Below are positions 26,948 through 26,957 of a DNA stretch of 64,000 bases, piece after piece. Where the stretch lies: contig CP068257.2 in NCBI GenBank assembly GCA_009914755.4, positions 42,048,001 through 42,112,000 of the forward strand, written 5' to 3'. Position 1 is the stretch's first letter. The number at the start of each line of letters is the position of its first letter. The notes below the pieces were generated by a model that was not told the origin of the DNA, searched no databases, and saw nothing but the letters and a program-made list of their open reading frames with translations. The stretch comes from the human T2T-CHM13v2.0 reference genome, Homo sapiens. A program made the position numbers and the translations under genes.

Positions 26948-26957
26948 CTTACGTAAC
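26948..26957. promoter_or_regulatory. Palindromic PAR-bZIP D-box CTTACGTAAC (core TTACGTAA) 25 bp into PDXK intron 1
   Basis: Exact match to the core of the PAR bZIP (DBP/TEF/HLF; antagonist NFIL3) consensus RTTAYGTAAY. It lies inside the promoter CpG island. Confidence 0.45.

What the first reader, a model, noticed from the sequence alone, without database searches (positions are those of the whole stretch)
26948..26957. Perfect palindromic PAR-bZIP D-box (TTACGTAA) 25 bp downstream of PDXK exon 1
CTTACGTAAC at 26948-26957 is an exact match to the core of the D-box bound by the circadian PAR bZIP factors DBP/TEF/HLF and the repressor NFIL3/E4BP4. The consensus is RTTAYGTAAY. Mouse Pdxk is an established PAR-bZIP target: PAR bZIP triple-knockout mice have reduced Pdxk, low pyridoxal phosphate and epilepsy (Gachon et al. 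2004). A perfect palindromic site inside the human promoter CpG island, at the very start of intron 1, is therefore a strong candidate for the conserved circadian response element. Whether this particular site is the functional one is my inference.
Basis: partly seen in the sequence, partly recalled or inferred. Interest (0 to 1): 0.55.

Follow-up and report, generated by a model that had tools for sequence, protein, structure and literature searches.

The report
Conserved D-box in PDXK intron 1
A short palindromic clock-factor binding site (TTACGTAA) just after the first exon of the human vitamin-B6 kinase gene PDXK is real and kept in all ten placental mammals examined. Its mouse counterpart is bound by the clock repressor NFIL3 in liver, so it is a sound but unsurprising example of a known kind of circadian switch in a known target gene.

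Summary
CTTACGTAAC lies at 26948-26957, 25 nt after the last base of PDXK coding exon 1 (26837-26923), inside a CpG island of about 72% GC. It is the only TTACGTAA in the window.

The strict 10-mer RTTAYGTAAY is matched 9/10 on either strand. An AT-rich octamer of this type is expected about 0.0006 times in the island.

In all 10 eutherians examined, a TTAYRTAA site sits 7-26 nt into intron 1. It is TTACGTAA in human, pig, fox and rabbit, TTATGTAA in mouse, Mus pahari, elephant and armadillo, and TTATATAA in rat. Apart from the splice donor, its bases are the only invariant intronic columns.

Mouse-liver ChIP-seq (Yoshitane 2019) shows a strong E4BP4/NFIL3 peak at Pdxk +257. By motif spacing this falls on the orthologous TTATGTAA. 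The peak is absent from the knockout list. No DBP peak was called there.

A second, stronger mouse peak at +7 kb lies on a TTATGCAA site found only in murids.

Best reading: this is a genuine, conserved D-box through which NFIL3 and PAR bZIP factors control PDXK transcription. The gene-level regulation is already known (Gachon 2004), so novelty and interest are low.

In passing, I found a conserved neighbouring TGACCTTGG nuclear-receptor-type half-site, and human loss of an upstream CACGTG E-box.

The parts
26949..26956 (.). D-box core TTACGTAA (palindromic bZIP site for PAR bZIP factors and NFIL3)
   Evidence: The orthologous site is present in all 10 eutherians examined. The mouse orthologue coincides with an E4BP4 ChIP-seq summit.
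26948..26957 (.). Flanked 10-mer CTTACGTAAC. The 3' half GTAAC (GTTAC on the - strand) is invariant across eutherians. The 5' half varies between CTTAC, CTTAT and TTTAT.
   Evidence: Alignment A1: invariant intronic columns are T56 T57 A58 T61 A62 A63 C64. It matches RTTAYGTAAY at 9/10 positions on either strand.
26837..26923 (+). PDXK coding exon 1 (29 codons, [29 protein letters not shown])
26924..26926 (+). Intron 1 splice donor GTA, invariant across species
26967..26975 (-). Second conserved intronic motif TGACCTTGG. Its reverse complement CCAAGGTCA is an extended nuclear-receptor half-site of NR5A/ERR type. It lies 11 nt 3' of the D-box in human.
   Evidence: Present 44-99 nt into intron 1 in all 10 eutherians. 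The factor assignment comes from my recalled consensus YCAAGGYCA and was not tested.
25800..28000 (.). Promoter CpG island that contains the site (GC 0.72, CpG o/e 0.80)
26576..26690 (+). Conserved core-promoter blocks (GGGGCGGGGCCTGCGTG ... GGAACTCGCGGGTT ... GCTGAGGTCAGAAGGAGG). By homology with mouse, the TSS is inferred at about 26680-26700, which puts the D-box at roughly +250 to +270.
   Evidence: Alignment A2. The mouse TSS is inferred at L013:2850-2880 from ChIP summit offsets. The human TSS position is an inference.

Best explanation
The sequence is a functional, evolutionarily conserved D-box (PAR bZIP response element). It lies in the promoter-proximal part of PDXK intron 1, about 250-270 bp downstream of the transcription start. 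Dimers of the activators DBP, TEF and HLF and of the repressor NFIL3/E4BP4 compete for the same palindrome. Occupancy by activators (peaking around dusk in mouse liver, near-constitutive in brain) raises PDXK transcription. Occupancy by NFIL3 in antiphase lowers it. This would give PDXK its clock-dependent level and modest rhythm.

Shown here: the site exists, it is far from chance in its GC-rich context, it is under purifying selection across eutherians, and its mouse orthologue is occupied by NFIL3 in liver.

Inferred: binding in human, binding by TEF, HLF or DBP at this particular site, and its quantitative contribution to PDXK expression.
For: Sequence: an exact TTACGTAA core 25 nt after exon 1.

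Chance: 0.0006 TTAYRTAA sites are expected in the island, and about 1e-5 to 1e-4 per species within 30 nt of the exon end.

Conservation:
- 10 of 10 eutherians, spanning Euarchontoglires, Laurasiatheria, Afrotheria and Xenarthra, carry the site 7-26 nt into an otherwise poorly alignable intron.
- Apart from the splice donor, the only invariant intronic columns are TTA..TAAC.
- In each species it is the only TTAYRTAA within -1.5 to +2.5 kb of the ATG.

In vivo binding (Yoshitane 2019, Supplementary Data 1):
- The WT-ZT24 E4BP4 sheet lists chr10:78464718 Pdxk(+257) with score 33.9 and chr10:78457974 Pdxk(+7001) with score 46.4. The mean over all 3064 sites is 16.0 +/- 12.4.
- The summit spacing of 6744 bp compares with 6774 bp between TTATGTAA (L013:3104) and TTGCATAA (L013:9878), so both summits lie within about 30 bp of a D-box.
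- No peak at those coordinates appears in the stored part of the E4bp4-KO E4BP4 list.
- TTATGTAA and TATGTAAC are the two top E4BP4-specific 8-mers, and the mouse site reads cTTATGTAAC.

Biochemistry: NFIL3 binds TTACGTAA with Kd 0.042 uM.

Expression:
- Mouse liver Pdxk mRNA peaks at ZT12-16 in wild type (adjusted P 0.011, amplitude 4.8).
- It is scored arrhythmic in E4bp4-KO (adjusted P 1).

Genetics: reviews cite Gachon 2004 for reduced Pdxk and pyridoxal phosphate, and epilepsy, in Dbp/Tef/Hlf triple knockouts.
Against: - No DBP peak was called anywhere in Pdxk in wild-type liver at ZT12. Only a weak DBP peak (score 4.2) appears at +7010 in E4bp4-KO.
- The wild-type Pdxk rhythm is modest (BH q 0.62), and the knockout replicates disagree at ZT0 and ZT20.
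- TTACGTAA ranked only 18th among in vivo D-box 8-mers.
- The rat orthologue has drifted to TTATATAA, a low-scoring variant.
- There are no human binding or reporter data here.
- C/EBPbeta binds the same octamer more tightly than NFIL3.
- In mouse, a second site at +7 kb has the stronger peak.
Confidence: 0.75

Rival explanations
1. The palindrome is mainly a constitutive promoter-proximal site for other bZIP dimers (C/EBPalpha/beta, C/EBP-ATF heterodimers). It would set the basal or tissue level of PDXK rather than act as a circadian element.
For: C/EBPbeta binds TTACGTAA with Kd 0.018 uM, tighter than NFIL3 at 0.042 uM. DBP was not detected at the mouse site. The Pdxk rhythm amplitude is small.
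Against: The mouse orthologue is occupied by E4BP4 with an above-average score, and this is absent in the knockout. Three lineages have TTATGTAA, the preferred E4BP4/PAR half-site combination, rather than a C/EBP-like TTGCGCAA drift. Pdxk falls in PAR bZIP triple knockouts. The two readings are not mutually exclusive.
Confidence: 0.12
2. The site binds D-box factors but is accessory. The clock input to PDXK comes chiefly from other elements, such as upstream E-boxes bound by CLOCK:BMAL1 or distal intronic D-boxes like the mouse +7 kb site.
For: The mouse +7001 E4BP4 peak is stronger (46.4 against 33.9), and it is the only place with any DBP signal. A review table lists Pdxk among CLOCK-BMAL1 targets. 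Eight of eight non-human eutherians have a CACGTG 280-615 bp upstream of the ATG.
Against: The +7 kb element aligns only among murids and has no counterpart in human, rabbit, pig, fox, elephant or armadillo. Human has no CACGTG from -1000 to +600. The exon-proximal D-box is the only one of these elements conserved in all eutherians examined.
Confidence: 0.1
3. The conservation reflects an RNA-level role, such as an intronic splicing element close to the exon 1 donor, or it is a neutral relic, and not a transcription-factor site.
For: It lies 7-26 nt from the 5' splice site in every eutherian examined.
Against: The distance to the donor varies threefold. The conserved unit is exactly a palindromic bZIP octamer plus one flank. 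The variants seen (CG to TG, TG to TA) keep bZIP half-sites. The site is occupied by a bZIP protein in vivo in mouse. Flanking intron sequence is not conserved, so neutral retention over about 100 My is implausible.
Confidence: 0.03

Closest known systems
D-box / PAR bZIP response elements of clock and clock-output genes (Per1, Per2, Per3, Nr1d1/2, Rora/b; consensus TTAYGTAA, extended RTTAYGTAAY)
   Same: It has the identical palindromic core, described as the founding D-box sequence together with TTATGTAA. It sits near a promoter and TSS like the Per1 and Per2 sites. In mouse it is occupied by E4BP4 at ZT24. It shows the typical CG/TG alternation between species.
   Different: It lies in an intron immediately after a coding exon rather than upstream of the TSS. 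One flank departs from the extended consensus. In the one available dataset it behaves as an E4BP4-only site rather than a DBP/E4BP4-common site.
Mouse Pdxk as a PAR bZIP target gene (Gachon et al. 2004, Genes Dev)
   Same: It is the same gene and the same regulatory logic. The human site is the orthologue of the mouse TTATGTAA 17 nt into intron 1.
   Different: I could not read the paper, so I cannot say whether this exact site was the one mapped there. I recall that conserved PAR bZIP sites were shown by EMSA and reporter assays, but this is unverified. Human has the CpG-containing perfect palindrome, and mouse has the TpG variant.
Mouse Pdxk +7 kb intronic D-box (TTATGCAA, D-box#1 of Yoshitane 2019)
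   Same: It is also in intron 1, also under an E4BP4 summit, and has an even higher score.
   Different: It is lineage-restricted to murids, it has a different octamer, and it carries a weak DBP signal in E4bp4-KO. Human intron 1 has no alignable counterpart.

Membership tests
D-box / PAR bZIP-NFIL3 response element | Matches the core TTAYGTAA | tested here: met
   TTACGTAA at 26949-26956, an exact 8/8 match
D-box / PAR bZIP-NFIL3 response element | Matches the flanked consensus RTTAYGTAAY | tested here: not met
   9/10 on either strand (CTTACGTAAC and GTTACGTAAG). The pattern search finds only the site at 5245. One half-site has the optimal G flank, and that half is invariant across species.
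D-box / PAR bZIP-NFIL3 response element | Occupied in vivo by NFIL3/E4BP4 | tested here: met
   This is for the mouse orthologue only. There is an E4BP4 ChIP-seq peak at Pdxk +257 with score 33.9 in wild-type liver at ZT24, and none at that position in the stored E4bp4-KO list. Human was not testable.
D-box / PAR bZIP-NFIL3 response element | Occupied in vivo by a PAR bZIP activator (DBP, TEF or HLF) | tested here: inconclusive
   DBP gave no called peak in Pdxk in wild-type liver at ZT12, and a weak peak only at +7010 in E4bp4-KO. No TEF or HLF ChIP data were available.
D-box / PAR bZIP-NFIL3 response element | Confers activator- and repressor-dependent transcription that is lost when the octamer is mutated | not testable with these tools
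   This needs reporter or genome-editing experiments. Yoshitane tested 3x D-box reporters, but the text only states clear effects for the top 10 motifs, and TTACGTAA is #18.
D-box / PAR bZIP-NFIL3 response element | The linked gene depends on PAR bZIP or NFIL3 dosage | tested here: met
   From the literature: Pdxk dysregulation in Dbp/Tef/Hlf triple knockouts. The liver Pdxk rhythm (adjusted P 0.011) is lost in E4bp4-KO (adjusted P 1). This is mouse only, and it is evidence at the level of the gene, not the site.
D-box / PAR bZIP-NFIL3 response element | Evolutionary conservation of the site | tested here: met
   10 of 10 eutherians carry it. Marsupials are weak: possum has TTATGTAA at +243, and koala has TTATGTAG at the aligned position. 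It is absent near exon 1 in platypus and skink.

The most novel reading that the evidence does not exclude
The D-box does not act alone. Together with the equally conserved TGACCTTGG (CCAAGGTCA, NR5A/ERR-type) half-site 11-80 nt downstream, it forms a composite promoter-proximal intronic module. In liver this module would be gated mainly by the repressor NFIL3 rather than by DBP. In human, where the upstream CACGTG E-box found in eight other eutherians has become CACCTG, this module would be the only direct clock input to vitamin-B6 activation.
Probability: 0.2. Interest if true: 0.4.

Novelty: already known. Interest (0 to 1): 0.2.

Why it matters
PDXK makes pyridoxal phosphate, the cofactor for synthesis of GABA, serotonin and dopamine. 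In mice, loss of the PAR bZIP activators lowers Pdxk and causes lethal epilepsy.

Pinning the clock input to one 8-bp, CpG-containing element in the human gene gives a concrete target for several kinds of work. These include variant interpretation, methylation studies (CpG methylation weakens NFIL3 binding about 14-fold) and editing experiments. It does not change the current understanding of the pathway.

Tried and rejected
- **Gachon 2004 not retrieved.** I tried by PMC id, DOI and PubMed id and it is not held. Searches for Pdxk with PARRE, first intron, HLF with ChIP-seq, or E4BP4 returned nothing that maps the site.
- **Sheet mis-assignment corrected.** I first read the Pdxk ChIP rows as DBP peaks. 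Locating the sheet boundaries and reading the DBP sheets showed they are E4BP4 peaks and that DBP has none in wild type.
- **No human counterpart of the mouse +7 kb D-box.** blastn at word size 7 finds it only in Mus pahari and rat. Human intron 1 has only an AT-rich TTACATAA at 38514, which does not align with it.
- **Depth of conservation is limited.** Possum has a TTATGTAA at +243, but koala has TTATGTAG there. Platypus and skink have none. I therefore do not claim conservation beyond eutherians.
- **RORE, CRE and E-box scans around exon 1.** There is no RORE or CRE. The only E-box-like hit in human is a CACGTT inside the coding exon, where coding constraint confounds any conservation.
- **One occurrence unaccounted for.** A fifth occurrence of 'Pdxk' in Supplementary Data 1 was not located. 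Coordinate searches exclude it from chr10:78453xxx-78459xxx and 78462xxx-78467xxx.

Full report
**Observation.** The window carries cttacgtaac at 26948-26957, and TTACGTAA occurs only there in the 64 kb.

A tblastn of the human pyridoxal kinase protein (sequence recalled from memory) places all coding exons in the window at about 100% identity. A database search names the closest proteins pyridoxal kinase, with Pongo at 99%. The window is therefore the human PDXK locus.

The site lies in a CpG island of about 25800-28000, with GC 0.72 and CpG o/e 0.80. The flanked consensus RTTAYGTAAY is matched only 9/10 on either strand, and the sole exact match in the window is ATTATGTAAT at 5245.

**Chance.** At the scale of the whole window a single TTACGTAA is weakly unusual. 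The expected count is 0.09, and 9 of 100 shuffles had one. In its real context, an AT-rich octamer in a 72-82% GC island, a first-order Markov model expects 0.0006 TTAYRTAA sites in the human island. The chance of one starting within 30 nt of the exon end is about 1e-5 to 1e-4 per species.

**Conservation.** I fetched the PDXK gene with flanks from the following species:
- Mus musculus, Mus pahari, Rattus rattus and rabbit
- pig and fox
- elephant and armadillo
- brushtail possum and koala
- platypus and a skink

All nine non-human eutherians have a TTAYRTAA octamer 7-26 nt into intron 1:

| Octamer | Species |
|---|---|
| TTACGTAA | pig, fox, rabbit (as in human) |
| TTATGTAA | both Mus species, elephant, armadillo |
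| TTATATAA | rat |

In each species it is the only such octamer between -1.5 and +2.5 kb of the ATG. In a MAFFT alignment of the exon 1/intron 1 junction, the only invariant intronic columns are the donor GTA and TTA..TAAC of the D-box. The spacer to the exon and the sequence beyond it are not conserved.

The 3' half GTAAC is invariant, and all changes fall in the 5' half. Outside eutherians the case is weak. Possum has TTTATGTAAC 243 nt into the intron, but koala reads TTATGTAG at the aligned position. Platypus and skink have nothing near exon 1.

**In vivo occupancy (mouse).** Supplementary Data 1 of Yoshitane et al. 2019 (PMC6687812) lists two rows, chr10:78457974 Pdxk(+7001) with score 46.4 and chr10:78464718 Pdxk(+257) with score 33.9. 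Locating the sheet boundaries shows that these rows belong to the wild-type ZT24 E4BP4 sheet, not the DBP sheet. The paper reports 3064 E4BP4 sites with a mean score of 16.0 +/- 12.4, collapsing to 1.8 in E4bp4-KO.

In Mus musculus GRCm39 (L013), TTATGTAA is at 3104, which is 17 nt after exon 1. A TTGCATAA, the reverse complement of the top-ranked D-box TTATGCAA, is at 9878. The motifs are 6774 bp apart and the summits are 6744 bp apart. Both summits therefore fall within about 30 bp of a D-box, and the mouse TSS is implied at L013:2850-2880.

No other peak with chr10:78464xxx coordinates exists in the stored file, including the E4bp4-KO E4BP4 sheet. The wild-type ZT12 DBP sheet has no peak between chr10:78.32 Mb and chr10:79.88 Mb, so there is none in Pdxk. 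The E4bp4-KO DBP sheet has only a weak peak at +7010, score 4.2.

This fits the paper's motif analysis. TTATGTAA and TATGTAAC head the E4BP4-specific list, and TTATGCAA heads the DBP-specific list.

**Expression and biochemistry.** In the same study, liver Pdxk mRNA peaks at ZT12-16 in wild type (about 12 rising to 20-22 FPKM-like units; adjusted P 0.011, lag 16 h). It is scored arrhythmic in E4bp4-KO (adjusted P 1). However, the wild-type q value is 0.62 and the knockout replicates disagree at ZT0 and ZT20.

Reviews cite Gachon et al. 2004 for Pdxk as a PAR bZIP target whose dysregulation in Dbp/Tef/Hlf triple knockouts accompanies low pyridoxal phosphate and seizures. ITC data give the following affinities:

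| Protein and DNA | Affinity |
|---|---|
| NFIL3 on TTACGTAA | Kd 0.042 uM |
| NFIL3 on TTATGTAA | about 12-fold weaker |
| NFIL3 on CpG-methylated TTACGTAA | about 14-fold weaker |
| C/EBPbeta on TTACGTAA | Kd 0.018 uM |

**The other mouse site.** The +7 kb region aligns to Mus pahari and, in duplicated and degraded form, to rat. It has no counterpart in human, rabbit, pig, fox, elephant or armadillo. Human intron 1 contains no other top-ranked D-box octamer except an AT-rich TTACATAA at 38514, which does not align with it. The exon-proximal site is therefore the only D-box at this locus shared by all the eutherians examined.

**Mechanism.** The most likely reading (confidence 0.75) is a classical D-box about 250-270 bp downstream of the TSS. 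The human TSS position is inferred by homology. PAR bZIP activators and NFIL3 compete for this site to set the level and modest rhythm of PDXK transcription.

- Shown: presence, non-randomness, purifying selection, and NFIL3 occupancy of the mouse orthologue.
- Inferred: occupancy in human, use by TEF, HLF or DBP, and the size of the effect.

The rival readings are as follows:
- A mainly C/EBP-type constitutive site (0.12).
- A real but accessory D-box, with other elements dominating (0.10).
- An RNA-level or neutral explanation (0.03).

**Comparison with known elements, and novelty.** This is an ordinary member of the D-box class in a gene already established as a PAR bZIP target, and the orthologous mouse site is visible in published ChIP-seq. 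I could not read Gachon 2004 to check whether this exact site was mapped there. I recall that conserved sites were tested, but that is unverified. I rate the finding as already known, with low interest (0.2).

**Things noticed.**
- A second motif, (G/A)TGACCTTGGC (human 26967-26975), is conserved 44-99 nt into intron 1 in all ten eutherians. Its reverse complement CCAAGGTCA fits my recalled NR5A/ERR half-site consensus.
- Eight other eutherians have a CACGTG 280-615 bp upstream of the ATG, whereas human has none from -1000 to +600. The position aligned to the mouse E-box reads CACCTG at 26526-26531.
- The perfect-consensus ATTATGTAAT at 5245 sits in sequence that I recognise as L1-like.

Noticed in passing
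window 26967-26975 (also L013:3171, L004:3152, L005:3162, L009:3135, L010:3186, L011:3186): (G/A)TGACCTTGGC is conserved 44-99 nt into intron 1 in all 10 eutherians, at variable distance (11-80 nt) from the D-box. Its reverse complement CCAAGGTCA looks like an NR5A (LRH-1/SF-1) or ERR extended half-site, and it is not a RORE. Possum and koala instead carry TTTGACCTTGGC about 400 bp upstream of the ATG.
   Followed up: partly
window 26526-26531; L013 about 2720; other loci -280 to -615 from the ATG: Eight of eight non-human eutherians have a canonical CACGTG E-box upstream of PDXK exon 1, whereas human has none between -1000 and +600. The human sequence aligned to the mouse E-box reads GCCACCTGG against GCCACGTGA. 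This suggests human, or possibly primate, loss of the CLOCK:BMAL1-type site.
   Followed up: partly
L013:9878-9885 (mouse Pdxk intron 1, about +7 kb): TTGCATAA (TTATGCAA, the top-ranked D-box) lies under the stronger E4BP4 peak (score 46.4) and the only DBP signal, which is weak and seen in E4bp4-KO. The element is alignable only among murids and has no human counterpart.
   Followed up: yes
window 5245-5254: ATTATGTAAT is the only exact RTTAYGTAAY in the window, 21.6 kb upstream of PDXK. It sits in sequence resembling an old L1 fragment next to an A-run, so it is probably a chance site in a repeat.
   Followed up: partly
Alignment A1: window 26949-26956 and orthologues: CpG decay in the D-box happened on the same side (TTACGTAA to TTATGTAA, never TTACATAA) in murids, elephant and armadillo, and it went further to TTATATAA in rat. 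The GTAAC half with its flank never changes, which hints at asymmetric constraint on the two half-sites.
   Followed up: no
window 26908-26913: An E'-box-like CACGTT lies inside coding exon 1. It is shared with rabbit, fox and armadillo but not with mouse, rat, pig or elephant. Coding constraint makes any regulatory reading uncertain.
   Followed up: no
Yoshitane 2019 Supplementary Data 1, WT-ZT12_DBP sheet, chr10:78.3-79.9 Mb: There is no DBP peak at Pdxk in wild-type liver despite strong E4BP4 peaks. In that dataset the Pdxk D-boxes are therefore 'E4BP4-specific' sites, although the gene is textbook PAR bZIP-dependent.
   Followed up: yes
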